Virus record (IMG/VR): IMGVR_UViG_3300045988_145635
From: a virus
Lineage: Duplodnaviria > Heunggongvirae > Uroviricota > Caudoviricetes
DNA: 64,000 nt
Reading direction: 5' to 3' (one strand)
A program made the position numbers and the translations under genes. The notes beneath the pieces were generated by a model that ran no database searches, had not been told where the DNA came from, and saw only the letters and a program-made list of their open reading frames with translations. Numbering within the stretch: position 1 is the stretch's first letter; every line of letters begins with the position of its first letter. Shown piece after piece: positions 4,191-40,838 of the stretch.

Positions 4191-6506
4191 ATGATAAGCA
4201 TCGTAAAACGTAACGGCCAAACAGAGCCGTTATCCGAAGAAAAATACAACCGCGTCGTAATGTATGGCGTAGAAGGCATTCGTGGTGTAAGCGCATCCGC
4301 TGTAGCAATGGGAGCTGCGGCCAGCATTTTTGATGGGATGACCACCAGCCAGTTGCATGAGGCTTTGGTTAAATCTGCCGCTGATTTGATCTCACCAGAA
4401 GCACCAAATTACTCACAGGTGGCTGCCCGCCTGAACATTTTTAAAATCCGCAAAGATGCCTTCGGTCGTTACGACTATCCGAACTTCTACCAACACATTG
4501 TCAAGAACGTTAACAAGGGCGTTTATGACAAGGATTTGCTGACACATTATTCGTTTGAAGAGATCGAAGAACTCGGCAATTACATTAAGCCGAAACGTGA
4601 CGATCTTTTTGGCTATGCAGCTACGGTGCAGTTGCAAAGCAAATACCTCGTTCAAAACCGTGTTACTGGTGAGATTCATGAGGGACCGCAACATATCTAT
4701 ATGCTGGTAGGCATGTGTCTGTTCCAGAATTGGGAAGACGACTGCGCTGGCAAAACACGTATGGAGATGGTCAAAGGTTTCTATGACGTTACAAGTACGT
4801 TCAAACTGTCTCTGCCCACACCAATCATGGCCGGCGTCCGTACTCCAACCCGTCAGTTCTCCAGTTGTGTGCTGATTGAGTCTGGCGATAGTCTGAAAGG
4901 GATTAGTGCAGCTTCAGCCGCAATTATCGACTACGTTTCACGTCGTGCTGGAATTGGTATTGGTTTTGGCCGTATCCGTGCGCTGGGCAGCGAGATCCGC
5001 AATGGTGAAGCCACCCATACTGGAGTTATTCCATTCCTGAAGCATTTCCAGACGGCTGTTAAATCTTGTTCGCAAGGTGGTGTTCGTGGTGGCGCAGCAA
5101 CAGCGTTTTACCCGATCTGGCATCTTGAAGTTGAAAGTCTGCTGGTGGTGAAAAATAACCGTGGTATTGATGAAAACCGCGTTCGCCATCTTGATTACGG
5201 CGTCATGAGTAACCGTCTAATGTACCGTCGACTCGTCAGAAGCGAGAACATCACTCTGTTCAGCCCGCATGATGTGCCTGATATGTACGAAGCCTTCTTC
5301 ACAGACCAGGAGCTGTTTGAAAAGCTGTACCATAAATACGAAGCCGATGATTCAATTCGCAAGAAGTCAGTACCTGCCATTGAGCTGTTCTCATCTCTGA
5401 TGCAGGAACGAGCGTCCACGGGCCGAATTTATATTGCGAACGTCGATCATATTAATGAGCATGGCGCTTTCATTCCTGCTCTTGCACCTGTTCGCCAGTC
5501 AAACCTGTGTATGGAGATCACCCTACCCACCCGTCCACTGGCATTTACCGACGACCCGAACGGTGAGATCGCGCTATGCACTTTATCCGCTTTTAACCTC
5601 GGAGCCATCCGTTCACTGGAGTCTCTTAAAGAGGTGGCGTTCTATGCCGTTGCTGCACTGGATTCGTTACTGGATTATCAAGACTATCCGATGGAGGCAG
5701 CCGAAGTGCCTGCCAAAGCTCGTCGTAGCTTGGGAATTGGTGTAACCAACTTTGCTTATTACCTGGCAAAGAATGGCGTTCGTTATTCTGATACCGCTGG
5801 CAATAAACTGGTGCATGAAACGTTCGAAGCTATCCAGTATTACCTTCTTGATGCCAGCTGCCGACTTGCTGAAGCAAAAGGTGAGTGTGACTGGTTTGAG
5901 CAGACCAAATACGCAATTGGTCAGTTGCCGATCGACCATTACCGTTCTTCATTAGACGAAAGTGGCGAAACCAACTTTGAGTTAAAGATGCCGTGGGAAG
6001 AACTGCGTGAACGTATTGCAAAATACGGCCTTCGCAACTCCACACTGACGGCACAAATGCCATGCGAGACTTCCAGCCAGATCACTAATTCCACCAACGG
6101 CATCGAACCGCCTCGTGGCCCGGTGTCAGTGAAATCTTCTAAGGACGGCATCGTCAAGATGGTCGTGCCTGAGTTTGAAAAACTGAAGGAACAGTATGAA
6201 TACCTGTGGGATATGCCGGACAACCGCGGCTATCTGACAAAGGTGGCGATCATCCAGAAGTTCTTTGACCAGGCTATTTCAGCCAATACCAACTATGACC
6301 CTTCTCGCTTTGAAGGCGATAAAGTCCCAATGATGACGCTACTGTCAGATTTGCTTCTCGCCTACAAGATGGGAGTTAAAACGCTTTACTACCACAACAC
6401 CAGAGATGGGGCAGGAAAGCGTGATGACGACGAACCGCAGAATCCACTGACGCAAGCTGTAGCCGTCGAGCCAGAAGATGAGTGCGACGGAGCCTGCAAA
6501 ATCTGA
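4191..6506 (+). CDS. nrdA: ribonucleoside-diphosphate reductase alpha subunit (class Ia)
   Basis: 771-aa protein collinear with recalled E. coli NrdA, including YLVQNRVTGEI, PTPIMAGVRTPTRQFSSCVLIE and VRQSNLCMEI blocks and the C-terminal CxxC tail. Confidence 0.95.
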   Translation: MISIVKRNGQTEPLSEEKYNRVVMYGVEGIRGVSASAVAMGAAASIFDGMTTSQLHEALVKSAADLISPEAPNYSQVAARLNIFKIRKDAFGRYDYPNFYQHIVKNVNKGVYDKDLLTHYSFEEIEELGNYIKPKRDDLFGYAATVQLQSKYLVQNRVTGEIHEGPQHIYMLVGMCLFQNWEDDCAGKTRMEMVKGFYDVTSTFKLSLPTPIMAGVRTPTRQFSSCVLIESGDSLKGISAASAAIIDYVSRRAGIGIGFGRIRALGSEIRNGEATHTGVIPFLKHFQTAVKSCSQGGVRGGAATAFYPIWHLEVESLLVVKNNRGIDENRVRHLDYGVMSNRLMYRRLVRSENITLFSPHDVPDMYEAFFTDQELFEKLYHKYEADDSIRKKSVPAIELFSSLMQERASTGRIYIANVDHINEHGAFIPALAPVRQSNLCMEITLPTRPLAFTDDPNGEIALCTLSAFNLGAIRSLESLKEVAFYAVAALDSLLDYQDYPMEAAEVPAKARRSLGIGVTNFAYYLAKNGVRYSDTAGNKLVHETFEAIQYYLLDASCRLAEAKGECDWFEQTKYAIGQLPIDHYRSSLDESGETNFELKMPWEELRERIAKYGLRNSTLTAQMPCETSSQITNSTNGIEPPRGPVSVKSSKDGIVKMVVPEFEKLKEQYEYLWDMPDNRGYLTKVAIIQKFFDQAISANTNYDPSRFEGDKVPMMTLLSDLLLAYKMGVKTLYYHNTRDGAGKRDDDEPQNPLTQAVAVEPEDECDGACKI

Positions 6507-37587: not shown

Positions 37588-37887
37588 TTACATCTTTTTT
37601 GCATAGTTCCTGATTTCTTTTATTATATATTCCTGAAAACGCTCCGAGTTTTCGCATTTGTCTTTTGAAGACTCATCAAGTCCCAACTTGCATCCCGCAA
37701 CGATCAGTCCATCTTGATATGCAGCGCCTAAAGCCATGCTTAGGTCTAACATGCACAAATCGTAGTCTTCCGCCTTTGAACACAACTCTGTAGAGACACG
37801 TTGCACTCGTTCAATGCTATTTTCTTGAGAAAATGCGGAAGAGCTAAAAATGAAAGTTAAGAATGTGAATGCTGCTACAGTTTTCAT
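37588..37887 (-). CDS. small secreted Cys-containing protein (paralogue A)
   Basis: N-terminal signal peptide MKTVAAFTFLTFIFSSSAFS; four cysteines with spacing similar to the paralogue at 37963-38259. Confidence 0.5.
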   Translation of the reverse strand: MKTVAAFTFLTFIFSSSAFSQENSIERVQRVSTELCSKAEDYDLCMLDLSMALGAAYQDGLIVAGCKLGLDESSKDKCENSERFQEYIIKEIRNYAKKM

Positions 37888-37962: not shown

Positions 37963-38259
37963 TTATCGGACTGACTCTACAGCCTTACGATTGGTGTCAA
38001 AAAGCGCATCAACGAACAGCAATGAAGAGTTGTTCAATTCACATGGTTCATAATTTTCCACCTGTTCACATAGTTGAGCGGTCTTACCTATGTTTATCCC
38101 TAGTTTTACTGCTGCTGAAAGTTGAAACATGCAAACTGGAATATTCTGAGACGTTGAGCATACGTCATGCATCAGCGACTTAATAATTGCAATATCATCC
38201 TTTGCATTGGCTGAAATTGAGTAAACTAAAAATAATGATGTCAATAGTATCGATTTCAT
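37963..38259 (-). CDS. small secreted Cys-containing protein (paralogue B)
   Basis: Signal peptide MKSILLTSLFLVYSISANA; four cysteines. Confidence 0.5.
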   Translation of the reverse strand: MKSILLTSLFLVYSISANAKDDIAIIKSLMHDVCSTSQNIPVCMFQLSAAVKLGINIGKTAQLCEQVENYEPCELNNSSLLFVDALFDTNRKAVESVR

Positions 38260-38262
38260 AAC

Positions 38263-38826
38263 TCAAAAAGGTAAAATTCGTTCAACCCAATCGAAGAAAA
38301 CAAGAATTTTTCTGCCGTCTTTCAACTTAAGTGTGACTAGGCAGGCATCAACGCCATCTGACGTTCCCTCAATTTCGCGGCCGTCTGCCATGTAGACCCT
38401 TATAGATTGGCCGTTTTGATAAGCCTTGCGACATATCTTAAAAAAATCACGACGTGATGGCTGGTTGTCTACATAGTCAGGGTGTATTGTTAGTCTCCCT
38501 TTGAAATCGTAATCAATGCCATCAATTACGCCTGATTCAATTGTGCTAATGCGCTCAAGTGGGAGCCTTATACGATTTTCTTTGTCAAATGGAGTTGGAC
38601 AAAGGTCAACTTTGTTACGAGATGACATGAGACCATAAACGTACATGCAAAACACTTGGCCGTCTTCGAGAGTGACTCTTACAGGAAATTTAGCCCTCCG
38701 CCAGAAGAGCAAGGTGCGTTCAGCATGTTCGTAGTCTCGCGGCCATACTTCAGCCGGTATGCCGTAGGTGATATCTTTCGTCGTCATATCATTATAAAGT
38801 GGTTGGCAATATGTCCATTGTACCAT
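38263..38826 (-). CDS. hypothetical protein
   Basis: 187-aa ORF; alternative start at ATG 38787 would avoid overlap with the lipoprotein gene; its last 19 codons lie in the 52-bp repeat. Confidence 0.45.
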   Translation of the reverse strand: MVQWTYCQPLYNDMTTKDITYGIPAEVWPRDYEHAERTLLFWRRAKFPVRVTLEDGQVFCMYVYGLMSSRNKVDLCPTPFDKENRIRLPLERISTIESGVIDGIDYDFKGRLTIHPDYVDNQPSRRDFFKICRKAYQNGQSIRVYMADGREIEGTSDGVDACLVTLKLKDGRKILVFFDWVERILPF

Positions 38827-39211
38827 CCCAGGTAGTGAAAACCCGATATGTTTTCGAATCGCCCTGCTTTAGCTTTATTTCTCGTTCCATCCTGGAGGGG
38901 TTAAATGCGCAAAGACCTGAACTTTCAATTGATGTCCCAACGATCCACTCTCCTTCGTTAAGGTAGAAAGTTGCTTTTTCACCAGGTTCTAGCTTTGCAG
39001 CCGTTTCTCCATTGATGAAAATGGAAGCGTTACATGCAGAACCAACCAGCCCTTTGTCTCGAACTATTGTTAGACTAGACTCATGTGGTGTTTGATATTT
39101 AAATATTCTGCTTTGAGGTGCATCCTTTGCCTTTGAAATAGATATAGACGAAGACGAACACCCAATTAGTGACGTGGTTAGCATTAGAATCATTAAGTTT
39201 TTTGCTTTCAT
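38792..39211 (-). CDS. putative lipoprotein
   Basis: MKAKNLMILMLTTSLIGCSSSS: signal peptide with LIGC lipobox; 139 aa. Confidence 0.6.
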   Translation of the reverse strand: MKAKNLMILMLTTSLIGCSSSSISISKAKDAPQSRIFKYQTPHESSLTIVRDKGLVGSACNASIFINGETAAKLEPGEKATFYLNEGEWIVGTSIESSGLCAFNPSRMEREIKLKQGDSKTYRVFTTWDGTMDILPTTL

Positions 39212-39238: not shown

Positions 39239-39787
39239 CTACATGCTATTCTGAGTTCTGTTGTAAATATCTTTTAAGAGGTCATCTCTTTTTATGTTTT
39301 TACAGACTTTGTCGAAACTTAATTCACCTGATGATATGCAGTTGTTGTATTTTTCGATAAAATTTTTTAATGCCAGATGATTTTTGAAAAGAAAAGAAAA
39401 ACCATAGGGTGACGTGCTATCTCTTATCCATTTCCGAGCACTGGGATAAGTGTATAAATTTGAATGCAACTCCAATTTTCCAGGGGCCACGCCATCACAG
39501 GAGTCCATAATAGCGAACATTTTTGATATATCAAAAGGATAAAAGACTACTCCGCAATTTGTCCTGGTGCCTTCAATATCTTTCACGTATATATAGTGTT
39601 CATAACGATCTTTACGTGAAGTCTTTAACCTGTATTGTATTAGTTTGTGCTCTTCTTTTTGAGAAGAAGTTAGGTGTCTAGGGTTTTCTAAGCAAGATTT
39701 CTGTTTATTTTTTTTATGATAAAAATCCACACAGTCCTTTATTTCCTTTGCACTTAAAAATCTCTTATCAAAAGGTAAGTGACCCAT
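39239..39787 (-). CDS. hypothetical protein
   Basis: GGAGG site 5 nt before the ATG; 182 aa; AT-rich codon usage. Confidence 0.5.
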   Translation of the reverse strand: MGHLPFDKRFLSAKEIKDCVDFYHKKNKQKSCLENPRHLTSSQKEEHKLIQYRLKTSRKDRYEHYIYVKDIEGTRTNCGVVFYPFDISKMFAIMDSCDGVAPGKLELHSNLYTYPSARKWIRDSTSPYGFSFLFKNHLALKNFIEKYNNCISSGELSFDKVCKNIKRDDLLKDIYNRTQNSM

Positions 39788-39927
39788 TCATGCCTCCGGT
39801 TCTAAACATAGGTAAGCCTACAAATATCGTTCAGCCAATCAAGATCTTTTTTCAGCCGGAGGTATATGTTTCAAAAAACGTGACGAATGTCACATGCAGG
39901 TGCTCTCATACACCTGCATGTAGACTA

Positions 39928-40559: not shown

Positions 40560-40838
40560 TTACGGCAACCTGCTCAGTATTTCCTCTAAATCTTTTTTTG
40601 TCATATTGGAGTTTTCATAGATGCGCATGATTTTCTCACGCGTCTTAGCGGAAACCCCAACAGCAGATGTGACTTTGTCAAATTCAGCCATAGTCATCGT
40701 CTCCAGAATGGCATTGATAACTTCAGCCTTAGACATCTTAATTTTTTTCTCTTTGAGTTTTATTTGAAATTTTCCAAGTTTTTCATTGGCCTTATCAGAC
40801 AATGCCACTTGGCAATAAGTTGTTTTTTTTTCGCTCAT
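40560..40838 (-). CDS. hypothetical small protein
   Basis: 92-aa Lys-rich ORF immediately downstream of the helicase gene. Confidence 0.45.
   Translation of the reverse strand: MSEKKTTYCQVALSDKANEKLGKFQIKLKEKKIKMSKAEVINAILETMTMAEFDKVTSAVGVSAKTREKIMRIYENSNMTKKDLEEILSRLP

What the first reader, a model, noticed from the sequence alone, without database searches (positions are those of the whole stretch)
38792..39211. Lipoprotein gene as a candidate superinfection-exclusion factor
The 139-aa protein has a classical signal peptide and lipobox (LIGC). Phage lipoproteins of this size commonly block the phage's own receptor after infection (the Llp and Cor type). It is embedded among secreted and unknown genes in the accessory island.
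Basis: partly seen in the sequence, partly recalled or inferred. Interest (0 to 1): 0.5.

Follow-up and report, generated by a model that had tools for sequence, protein, structure and literature searches.

The report
Uncharacterised phage moron outer-membrane lipoprotein
The gene is a real outer-membrane lipoprotein carried as an add-on ("moron") gene by many temperate phages, phage-plasmids and satellites, but it is unrelated to the known receptor-blocking lipoproteins Llp and Cor, its variants do not track the phage's receptor-binding protein, and its function remains untested.

Summary
Window 38792..39211(-) encodes a 139-aa prolipoprotein (lipobox LIG|C, Ser at +2, mature 13.3 kDa) on an SSU5-like E. 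coli phage-plasmid.

It belongs to phrog_890, a large family (1331 clusters) distantly related to Pfam DUF2846, with a transthyretin-like beta-sandwich fold. Nothing found gives it an experimental function.

- **Not Llp/Cor:** only the signal peptides align, the mature part is twice as large, and the fold searches returned no Llp or Cor.
- **No link to receptor specificity:** elements with identical J receptor-binding domains carry this allele, a 60% allele or no family member. In 36 lambdoid loci lipoprotein type and J C-terminal type are unlinked (Spearman 0.16).
- **SSU5's receptor:** it is LPS core, not a protein.

Some prophage-expressed conversion or exclusion role remains plausible.
- In about 110 of 144 loci the gene sits as a moron at three junctions of the lambda-type tail-tip operon, nearly always with its own terminator.
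- In two phages it lies just downstream of the cI-like repressor.
- It also occurs in P4-like satellites, and in every phage record examined the carrier is temperate or a satellite.

My best guess (0.4) is exclusion at a step independent of receptor identity.

The parts
38792..39211 (-). Prolipoprotein gene, 139 aa. Signal peptide is residues 1-17, lipobox LIGC, lipidated Cys18. The mature 122-aa domain is a DUF2846-related beta-sandwich.
   Evidence: ORF and sequence. phrog_890 E 7.8e-51. AF2 model pLDDT 81, pTM 0.75, eight beta-strands. Family lipobox statistics. dN/dS 0.06-0.16.
38263..38787 (-). FljA-family gene (repressor of phase-1 flagellin). Its likely start lies 4 nt after the lipoprotein stop, so the two are probably co-transcribed. 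It is the conserved downstream partner in SSU5-type loci.
   Evidence: Pfam Flag1_repress E 3.3e-80. phrog_1444 E 1e-97, with the match starting at Met14 of the longer ORF. All 27 SSU5-type loci whose flank reaches downstream show LIPO followed by FljA. No terminator lies between them in 0 of 27 SSU5-type loci.
39239..39787 (-). Unknown 182-aa gene (phrog_31250) that ends 27 nt upstream of the lipoprotein start. It is present only in the window-type subgroup of SSU5-like elements.
   Evidence: Found in L027-L030 only among the sampled loci. No Pfam hit.
39878..39895 (-). Terminator-like hairpin with a T-run. It lies upstream of the p182 - lipoprotein - FljA cassette and separates it from the 199-aa gene.
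   Evidence: Consensus scan only. The number found in the region does not exceed the shuffled expectation.
40560..40838 (-). 92-aa gene (phrog_1466). In SSU5, pMT1 and most relatives it lies directly upstream of the lipoprotein. It diverges as fast as the lipoprotein does. Its Cyrano homolog is transcribed in lysogens.
   Evidence: Synteny. Identity to SSU5-type relatives 55-58%. CYRAN_117 is transcribed 12-fold above the local prophage background (PMC9928086).

Best explanation
This is a moron-type accessory gene of an SSU5-like phage-plasmid.

**Predicted from sequence.** The product is exported through the Sec pathway, lipidated at Cys18 and cleaved by signal peptidase II. [quoted passage not shown] There a 13-kDa beta-sandwich, probably stabilised by a disulfide bond and related to DUF2846, would face the periplasm.

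**Inferred from context.** The gene is expressed from the resident element during lysogeny.

**Most likely function (inferred, untested).** It is a lysogenic-conversion factor that protects the carrier cell against incoming phages at a step that does not depend on receptor identity. The best candidate is a periplasmic, post-adsorption step of lambda-type tail-tip penetration or DNA transit. This matches the logic of T4 Spackle, HK97 gp15 or TP-J34 Ltp. It does not match allosteric inactivation of the phage's own receptor, which is how Llp and Cor work.
For: **Real and predicted to reach the outer membrane.** The gene is constrained and carries a canonical lipobox.

**Moron architecture.**
- In 144 related loci the gene sits at three different junctions of the tail-tip operon: about 96 at K|I, about 13 at TMP|M and 1 at I|J.
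- 101 of 104 tail-operon copies have an intrinsic-terminator hairpin with a T-run immediately downstream. The rate in random windows is 42 of 720. The mEp390 terminator was read directly from the sequence.

**Linked to the lysogeny repressor.**
- In Vibrio phage H20 the gene starts 16 nt after cI on the same strand.
- In contig L112 it starts 68 nt after an HTH_3 repressor-like gene.
- In SSU5-type loci the upstream gene p92 is transcribed in lysogens of the relative Cyrano.

**Found only in temperate elements.** Of 50,697 phage records, 39 carry a homolog, and all are temperate phages, phage-plasmids or satellites (one is an unclassified faecal contig). P4-like satellites carry it next to variable cargo.

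**Not tied to a mammalian-virulence niche.** Hosts include environmental Pseudomonas, Vibrio anguillarum, Gilliamella and Kluyvera.

**Fast but constrained evolution.** dN is about 6 times that of the adjacent helicase while dN/dS stays low.

**Independent of receptor type.**

**Shared tail-tip type.** Every carrier phage examined has a lambda-type M-L-K-I-J tail tip.
Against: - No experiment on any family member was found.
- No PADLOC defence model matches.
- The K|I and I|J junctions are general moron insertion sites. HK022 has unrelated morons there, so position inside the tail operon does not by itself imply a tail-related target.
- Lambda Bor and Lom show that morons encoding outer-membrane proteins can serve host fitness and not exclusion.
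- No consensus sigma-70 promoter was found upstream in mEp390.
- Some distant relatives lie in ordinary chromosomal contexts, so the ancestral function may be cellular.
- Lambda-type tail tips are very common among temperate siphophages of Proteobacteria, so that association may be trivial.
Confidence: 0.4

Rival explanations
1. Host-fitness conversion lipoprotein. The protein alters envelope physiology (stress, serum or complement resistance, adhesion, peptidoglycan or outer-membrane homeostasis) for the benefit of the lysogen, as lambda Bor or Lom do, and has no role in phage exclusion.
For: - It has the same moron architecture and lysogeny-linked positions that fit the best explanation.
- The related DUF2846 family and some distant members are ordinary chromosomal genes.
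- The protein is under purifying selection, with no gene-wide positive selection.
- It is independent of the receptor-binding protein.
- In SSU5-type loci it is in an operon with an FljA-family regulator of host flagellin, which is another host-phenotype gene.
Against: - Hosts span very different niches (bee gut, fish pathogen, soil and Antarctic Pseudomonas, Enterobacterales), so no single host-environment benefit is obvious.
- It diverges faster than its neighbours.
- It is carried by satellites next to variable cargo.
- No match to the Bor or TraT Pfam families.
Confidence: 0.3
2. One reading: an Llp/Cor-type superinfection-exclusion lipoprotein. It would bind the periplasmic face of the phage's own outer-membrane receptor and inactivate it.
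For: - It is a lipoprotein predicted to go to the outer membrane, with an internal Cys pair, as Llp has.
- In lambdoid phages the gene usually lies close to J.
- Four of the five plasmids with the window-type allele share one J C-terminal region.
Against: - No homology to Llp or Cor beyond the signal peptide.
- The fold searches returned no Llp or Cor, and the protein is twice their size.
- An identical J receptor-binding region occurs with three different states of the locus.
- One lipoprotein cluster pairs with 5-7 J C-terminal clusters, and one J C-terminal cluster with up to 4 lipoprotein clusters. Spearman is 0.16, below the linkage controls.
- SSU5's reported receptor is LPS core.
- The gene is not adjacent to receptor-binding genes in SSU5-like elements. 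It lies about 24 kb from J.
Confidence: 0.1
3. A lytic-cycle function. In lambdoids the protein would be made late together with the tail genes and act in the envelope of the dying cell. It might protect progeny from adsorbing to debris, or modulate lysis or peptidoglycan hydrolysis, for example as a periplasmic inhibitor or immunity protein for an NlpC/P60-type hydrolase such as gpK.
For: - It is embedded in the late tail operon next to K (JAB plus NlpC/P60 domains) in about 96 loci.
- T5 Llp is thought mainly to protect progeny from receptor-bearing debris.
Against: - The terminator directly downstream argues for an autonomous transcription unit, not a late-operon member.
- It is absent from virulent phages.
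- In H20, L112 and the SSU5-type loci it lies outside the late operon.
- It is not in a lysis cassette, and it is unlike an o-spanin in size and fold.
Confidence: 0.1

Closest known systems
T5 Llp and the Cor proteins of phi80, HK022, N15 and T1 (FhuA-inactivating exclusion lipoproteins)
   Same: Phage-encoded lipoprotein predicted to go to the outer membrane, Cys pair in the mature part, accessory gene, and in lambdoid phages often near the tail genes.
   Different: - No sequence similarity beyond the signal peptide.
- Mature part is 122 aa, against about 60 aa.
- A transthyretin-like sandwich; the fold searches returned no Llp or Cor.
- The gene is not co-segregating with the receptor-binding gene, and its alleles do not track receptor-binding type.
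Lambdoid tail-operon morons, for example HK97 gp15 (exclusion protein that blocks DNA entry) and HK022 gp20, gp22 and srb
   Same: A self-contained gene with its own terminator, inserted between tail genes at the same K|I and I|J junctions. For gp15, exclusion at DNA entry and not at the receptor is stated from my own knowledge of Cumby et al. 2012, a paper cited.
   Different: An unrelated protein. gp15 is a small inner-membrane protein, whereas this is an outer-membrane lipoprotein with a globular periplasmic domain. No phenotype is known for it.
Lambda Bor (and the related Iss) and F-plasmid TraT, lipoproteins of mobile elements that confer serum resistance or surface exclusion
   Same: Outer-membrane lipoproteins carried as conversion genes by temperate phages or plasmids.
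   Different: No Pfam match to Lambda_Bor or TraT. This protein evolves much faster, and its hosts include non-pathogens.
Pfam DUF2846 (bacterial lipoprotein-like beta-sandwich domain of unknown function)
   Same: Weak but repeated profile matches. 17 of 62 family members hit DUF2846, best E 3.7e-7, with a matching strand pattern.
   Different: The window protein scores 14.4 bits against the 34.3-bit gathering cut-off. DUF2846 itself has no known function.
T6SS lipoprotein TssJ (an outer-membrane lipoprotein with a transthyretin-like fold that binds a periplasmic partner)
   Different: Low structural score, no sequence similarity and no T6SS genes nearby.

Membership tests
Bacterial lipoprotein (Lgt/LspA substrate) | N-terminal signal peptide ending in a lipobox [LVI][ASTVI][GAS]C | tested here: met
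   MKAKNLMILMLTTSLIG|C. Cys18 is invariant in 62 sequences. 159 of 173 relatives have a lipobox. No dedicated predictor such as LipoP or SignalP was available.
Bacterial lipoprotein (Lgt/LspA substrate) | Outer-membrane sorting: no Asp at +2 | tested here: met
   +2 is Ser. Across the family +2 is Ala, Ser, Thr or Gly and never Asp. Actual localisation was not tested.
PHROG 890 'lipoprotein' | Full-length profile match | tested here: met
   E 7.8e-51, residues 4-139 against profile positions 2-136 of 136.
Pfam DUF2846 (PF11008) | Score at or above the gathering cut-off of 34.3 bits | tested here: not met
   14.4 bits, E 0.041. 17 of 62 relatives match at E <= 0.01, so this is a related but divergent branch.
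Llp/Cor exclusion lipoproteins | Sequence or profile similarity of the mature domain | tested here: not met
   BLASTP finds nothing against HK022 Cor, and only the signal-peptide region (residues 4-41, E 1.0) against T5 Llp. hhalign of the family profile aligns residues 1-20 only. The PDB sequence search matches 8a60 (Llp) in residues 1-18 only, E 0.97.
Llp/Cor exclusion lipoproteins | Small mature protein of about 7 kDa with the Llp fold | tested here: not met
Llp/Cor exclusion lipoproteins | Gene linked to and co-varying with the receptor-binding protein gene | tested here: not met
   The gene is about 24 kb from J in SSU5-like elements. An identical J C-terminal region occurs with three states of the locus. 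There is no association in 36 lambdoid loci, and the same allele occurs with two J types and three fibre types.
Llp/Cor exclusion lipoproteins | Inactivates the phage's receptor and blocks adsorption | not testable with these tools
   This needs expression with adsorption and plating assays.
Moron (autonomous accessory transcription unit in a phage genome) | Present or absent between otherwise syntenic genomes | tested here: met
   The closest phage relatives do not appear among the family's tblastn hits, and Cyrano carries a different lipoprotein at the locus. About half of E. coli SSU5-like plasmids carry a family member. The gene occupies three alternative junctions in tail operons.
Moron (autonomous accessory transcription unit in a phage genome) | Own terminator and promoter | tested here: inconclusive
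   A terminator is present in 101 of 104 tail-operon copies. In the window itself the gene is followed directly by the FljA-family gene with no terminator (0 of 27 SSU5-type loci). No consensus promoter was identified.
o-spanin (Rz1-like lysis lipoprotein) | Small lipoprotein (about 40-60 aa mature) encoded within or next to an i-spanin gene in a lysis cassette | tested here: not met
   The mature part is a 122-aa globular sandwich. The neighbours are an FljA-family gene and unknown genes, with no holin, endolysin or i-spanin PHROG hits. The size and organisation of o-spanins are stated from my own knowledge of the family.
Lambda Bor / TraT | Pfam Lambda_Bor or TraT match | tested here: not met
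   A Pfam scan at E <= 1 returned only DUF2846.
Known anti-phage defence systems (PADLOC) | Match to any PADLOC model | tested here: not met
   No hit at E <= 0.1.

The most novel reading that the evidence does not exclude
The family could be a widespread class of prophage-, phage-plasmid- and satellite-encoded periplasmic exclusion factors that has not been recognised. It would work independently of receptor identity by intercepting a conserved component of lambda-type tail tips as it crosses the periplasm. Candidates are the gpK NlpC/P60 peptidase, the C-terminal part of gpI, or the tape-measure protein. This would explain four things: its confinement to elements with such tails, its recurrent insertion among the tail-tip genes, its pairing with a gpI homolog in P4-like satellites, and its lack of coupling to the J receptor-binding domain.
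Probability: 0.2. Interest if true: 0.65.

Novelty: new variant of a known kind. Interest (0 to 1): 0.4.

Why it matters
SSU5-like phage-plasmids are common in E. coli, Salmonella (pHCM2), Yersinia pestis (pMT1), Enterobacter and Citrobacter. The family occurs in 415 PLSDB plasmids and many prophages, yet it has no assigned function.

If it proves to be an exclusion factor that does not depend on receptor type, it would add a mechanism to the short list of envelope-level phage exclusion systems in Gram-negative bacteria. It would also matter for phage-therapy host-range prediction in strains carrying these elements.

If it is instead a host-fitness lipoprotein, it is an ordinary moron. In both cases, filing it as 'Llp/Cor-like' from the lipobox alone would be wrong, and the analysis here shows why.

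Tried and rejected
- **Llp/Cor membership.** Rejected by sequence, profile, size, fold and linkage tests.
- **Solved homolog.** The PDB sequence search with the family profile found none.
- **Curated libraries.** NCBIfam and PADLOC gave no hit.
- **DUF2846 literature.** The only structural paper concerns Bd1399, which turned out to be DUF4360-like. It says nothing about function.
- **Tai tail-assembly-inhibition systems.** I considered these because of the satellites and tail genes. [quoted passage not shown]
- **A satellite receptor-binding gene paired with the lipoprotein.** The downstream satellite genes are a 724-aa unknown protein and a histidine kinase, neither similar to J or to a tail fibre.
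- **Literature on SSU5, pHCM2, pMT1 and morons.** No experimental test of this gene was found.
- **Broad-alignment locus scans.** The search for related loci failed with alignments A2 and A3 because they have no conserved stretch. I used sub-family queries instead, so the 144 loci are biased toward SSU5-, mEp390-, HK639- and one Pseudomonas-type relatives.
- **The two small secreted neighbours.** They have no PDB relatives.
- **The window's own J gene.** It lies beyond the window end. I used plasmid NZ_CP126951, which carries the identical lipoprotein allele, as the proxy. It is 97.5% identical to the window across M-L-K-I-J' but mosaic in the tape-measure gene.
Full report
**1. The observation**

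The ORF at 38792..39211 on the minus strand is present exactly as described. It encodes 139 aa beginning MKAKNLMILMLTTSLIG|C. That gives a basic n-region, a hydrophobic core and a canonical lipobox with Cys18. Ser at +2 means no Lol-avoidance signal. The mature protein is 122 aa, 13.3 kDa, with two further Cys at positions 60 and 101.

It is not a chance ORF.
- It matches phrog_890 'lipoprotein' over its whole length, E 7.8e-51.
- An exhaustive profile search finds 1331 cluster representatives, almost all about 140 aa.
- The lipid-anchor Cys is invariant, and C60 and C101 are at least 90% conserved in a 62-sequence alignment.
- 159 of 173 relatives have a lipobox, and none has Asp at +2.
- dN/dS against close relatives is 0.06-0.16.

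**2. What element this is**

The window is an SSU5-like phage-plasmid of E. coli. Its content runs from nucleotide-metabolism and replication genes, through an AT-rich accessory block at 36.0-40.8 kb (36-40% GC against 44-51% in the flanks), to ParB genes and then head and tail genes up to the start of J.

The allele is rare. It is at least 90% identical in 9 of 5426 complete E. coli genomes. About 98 more carry divergent alleles. All copies are on plasmids. The identical allele lies on plasmid NZ_CP126951 of an APEC strain, where RefSeq does not annotate it.

**3. The locus in SSU5-like elements**

SSU5, pMT1 of Y. pestis, pHCM2-type Salmonella plasmids and many Enterobacter, Citrobacter and Kluyvera elements share one arrangement: helicase - p92 - lipoprotein - FljA-family gene - p216. 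The window subgroup adds an unknown 182-aa gene before the lipoprotein. The window itself also has a 199-aa gene (shared with Cyrano) and two small secreted proteins after the FljA-family gene.

The downstream neighbour is a true FljA-family protein (Flag1_repress, E 3e-80). It probably starts 4 nt after the lipoprotein stop codon.

The lipoprotein is common but dispensable. The table counts PLSDB plasmid records by genus. The two searches were not cross-matched record by record, so the counts are parallel, not nested.

| Genus | Records with the lipoprotein | Records with the SSU5-type helicase |
|---|---|---|
| Yersinia | 62 | 62 |
| Salmonella | 47 | 49 |
| Enterobacter | 82 | 92 |
| Escherichia | 127 | 228 |

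- Klebsiella has 346 helicase records but only 52 lipoprotein records. The listed Klebsiella lipoprotein plasmids are about 54-70 kb, not SSU5-sized.
- The closest phage relatives Cyrano, PhiR41_1 and CMS-2020a (SCU-175) do not appear among the family's tblastn hits.
- Cyrano carries a different 266-aa lipoprotein with Asp at +2 on the other strand at that spot. The site therefore looks like a cargo hotspot.
- Between the window and SSU5 or pMT1 the lipoprotein is 55-59% identical and p92 is 58%. The helicase is 92-93%, the FljA-family gene 78-79% and p216 86%.
- In Cyrano lysogens the p92 homolog (CYRAN_117) is transcribed 12-fold above the local prophage background (PMC9928086).

**4. The family elsewhere**

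Among 50,697 phage records only 39 carry a homolog. All are temperate phages, phage-plasmids or satellites, apart from one unclassified faecal contig: SSU5, lambdoid mEp390, CharmingMan, Fostie, HK639, Salmonella SW-37, the Vibrio anguillarum H20 group, and Pseudomonas phiAH14a and phiAH14b.

I collected 144 loci from IMG/VR and GTDB genomes and classified each neighbourhood with reference proteins.

| Arrangement | Loci |
|---|---|
| K - lipoprotein - I (- J) | about 96 |
| Tape measure - lipoprotein - M | about 13 |
| I - lipoprotein - J | 1 |
| SSU5 type (helicase - p92 - lipoprotein - FljA) | 28 |
| Unresolved | 6 |

- Independent look-ups of proteins 28-40% identical to the window protein gave the same K|I placement in Pseudomonas prophages and in one unidentified sequencing-run contig.
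- 101 of 104 tail-operon copies are followed within 110 nt by a hairpin with a T-run. The rate is 42 of 720 in random windows and 0 of 27 in SSU5-type loci.
- The mEp390 terminator, GGCCACCtccgGGTGGC followed by six T, was read directly from the sequence.
- In Vibrio phage H20 the gene starts 16 nt after cI on the same strand. In the 110-kb contig L112 it starts 68 nt after an HTH_3 repressor-like gene.
- P4-like Pseudomonas satellites carry a genuine gpI homolog, about 50% identical to phage gpI, directly upstream of the lipoprotein. Unrelated cargo follows.
- One distant member lies in a plain metabolic chromosomal context.
- Every carrier phage examined, H20 included, has a lambda-type M-L-K-I-J tail tip.
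- A caution on position: HK022 has unrelated morons at the same K|I and I|J junctions. These are general insertion sites.
- A caution on sampling: the loci were seeded from four sub-families, so the proportions are not unbiased.

**5. Fold and homology**

The window protein hits Pfam DUF2846 below threshold (14.4 against 34.3 bits). 17 of 62 relatives hit it, best E 3.7e-7. This is therefore a divergent relative of a domain that itself has no known function. NCBIfam and PADLOC give nothing.

**6. Testing the Llp/Cor reading**

Llp is a 7.09-kDa outer-membrane lipoprotein with an essential disulfide bond. Its gene lies immediately next to the receptor-binding gene so that the two co-segregate. 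It binds the periplasmic face of FhuA. Cor proteins share its fold (bioRxiv 10.64898/2026.03.26.714494).

- **Homology.** HK022 Cor and T5 Llp are both 77-aa precursors. BLASTP finds nothing against Cor, and only the signal-peptide region (E 1.0) against Llp. The family-profile comparison aligns residues 1-20 only. The PDB entry for Llp matches in residues 1-18 only.
- **Coupling in SSU5-like elements.** The last 399 aa of J in NZ_CP126951 (identical lipoprotein allele) are 100% identical in two other elements. Cyrano has no family member, and CMS-2020a SCU-107 carries a 60% allele. Conversely, the five plasmids with the window-type allele have two J C-terminal types (100% and 67%) and three tail-fibre types.
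- **Coupling in lambdoid loci.** In 36 loci with a complete J, one lipoprotein cluster (at least 80% identity) pairs with 5 J C-terminal clusters and another with 7. One J C-terminal cluster pairs with 4 lipoprotein clusters. Spearman for lipoprotein against J C-terminus is 0.16. The controls are 0.41 for gpI against J C-terminus and 0.44 for J N-terminus against J C-terminus.
- **SSU5's receptor.** It is reported to be LPS core polysaccharide (Kim et al. 2014, as cited in PMC10975011). A periplasm-facing lipoprotein could not mask that in the Llp manner.

The specific analogy therefore fails on every feature that could be tested here.

**7. What it most likely does**

*Predicted from sequence:* a constrained, fast-evolving lipoprotein with an outer-membrane sorting signal.

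*Shown by comparative context:* it behaves as a moron, is linked to lysogeny control in two phages, was found only in temperate elements and satellites, and is independent of receptor-binding type.

*Inferred:* it is expressed in the lysogen and changes an envelope property.

I favour, at confidence about 0.4, protection against incoming phages at a step that does not depend on receptor identity. That would be a periplasmic stage of tail-tip penetration or DNA transit, with the logic of T4 Spackle, HK97 gp15 or TP-J34 Ltp. The reasons are the taxonomic breadth across unrelated niches, the satellite carriage, the fast divergence under purifying selection, and the restriction to elements with lambda-type tail tips.

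The rivals are:
- a host-fitness lipoprotein of the Bor type (0.3), which the same architecture fits equally well;
- a lytic-cycle role (0.1), for example progeny protection or inhibition of an NlpC/P60 hydrolase.

No experiment on any family member was found in the searchable literature.

**8. Verdict**

The gene is real and the lipoprotein call is correct. The claim that it is 'Llp/Cor-type' is not supported. A broader role as an exclusion or conversion factor is plausible but unproven.

The family is already catalogued as a 'lipoprotein' of unknown function. The new points here are its systematic moron deployment and its lack of coupling to receptor specificity. Interest is moderate: this is a testable and widespread unknown, not a surprise.

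Noticed in passing
window 38263..38787 (-): An FljA-family 'repressor of phase-1 flagellin' (Pfam Flag1_repress, E 3e-80) lies directly downstream of the lipoprotein. It follows the lipoprotein in every sampled SSU5-like locus whose flank reaches that far, and Cyrano keeps it although it lacks the lipoprotein. A phage-plasmid that may silence host flagellin could affect motility, immune recognition or susceptibility to flagellum-dependent phages.
   Followed up: partly
window 37963..38259 (-) and 37588..37887 (-): A tandem pair of small proteins (98 and 99 aa), each with an N-terminal sequence that looks like a signal peptide and four Cys. They are distant paralogs (they cross-hit phrog_9536 and phrog_27673). 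Cyrano and SSU5 lack them. They have no Pfam or PDB relatives.
   Followed up: partly
L001 6002..6802 (+), phage Cyrano, the position equivalent to window ~38.8-39.9 kb: Cyrano carries an unrelated 266-aa lipoprotein at the same locus on the opposite strand. Its lipobox is LLTGC with Asp at +2, which predicts inner-membrane retention. The site therefore looks like a hotspot for lipoprotein cargo.
   Followed up: partly
L022 3212..5384 (phiAH14b) and L015 6293..8429 (P. protegens island): P4-like Pseudomonas satellites (AlpA, Toprim and DUF927 primase) share a conserved block: a 201-aa gene, a 111-126-aa gene, a gpI homolog (about 50% identical to phage tail assembly protein I), then the lipoprotein. 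Variable cargo follows. Why a satellite keeps a tail-tip assembly gene is unexplained.
   Followed up: partly
window 40560..40838 (-): The 92-aa gene p92 (phrog_1466) diverges as fast as the lipoprotein (55-58% identity to SSU5-type relatives, against 92-93% for the adjacent helicase). Its Cyrano homolog CYRAN_117 is among the genes expressed in lysogeny, 12-fold above background (PMC9928086). It may be a small regulator of this accessory operon.
   Followed up: partly
L161 3749..3973 and 4653..4973 (HK022): HK022 has unrelated morons (gp20; gp22 and srb) at the same K|I and I|J junctions where the lipoprotein sits in other lambdoid phages. These junctions are general moron insertion sites.
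   Followed up: yes
NZ_CP126951.1 52978..53397 (the plasmid with the identical lipoprotein allele): The RefSeq annotation has no feature over the lipoprotein gene there, although the allele is 100% identical to the window and is clearly coding.
   Followed up: no
L164-L167 and L004 (tail-fibre regions of five plasmids sharing the window-type lipoprotein allele): The region downstream of J is highly mosaic. The tail fibres are 625, 1022, 1260, 1472 and 1583 aa. Three of the five plasmids add a separate 'receptor-recognizing protein', and one has a tail-protein pseudogene. Part of the NZ_CP126951 fibre C-terminal region resembles the S fibre of phage P1 (59-76% identity over 56-76% of the 399-aa query).
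   Followed up: partly
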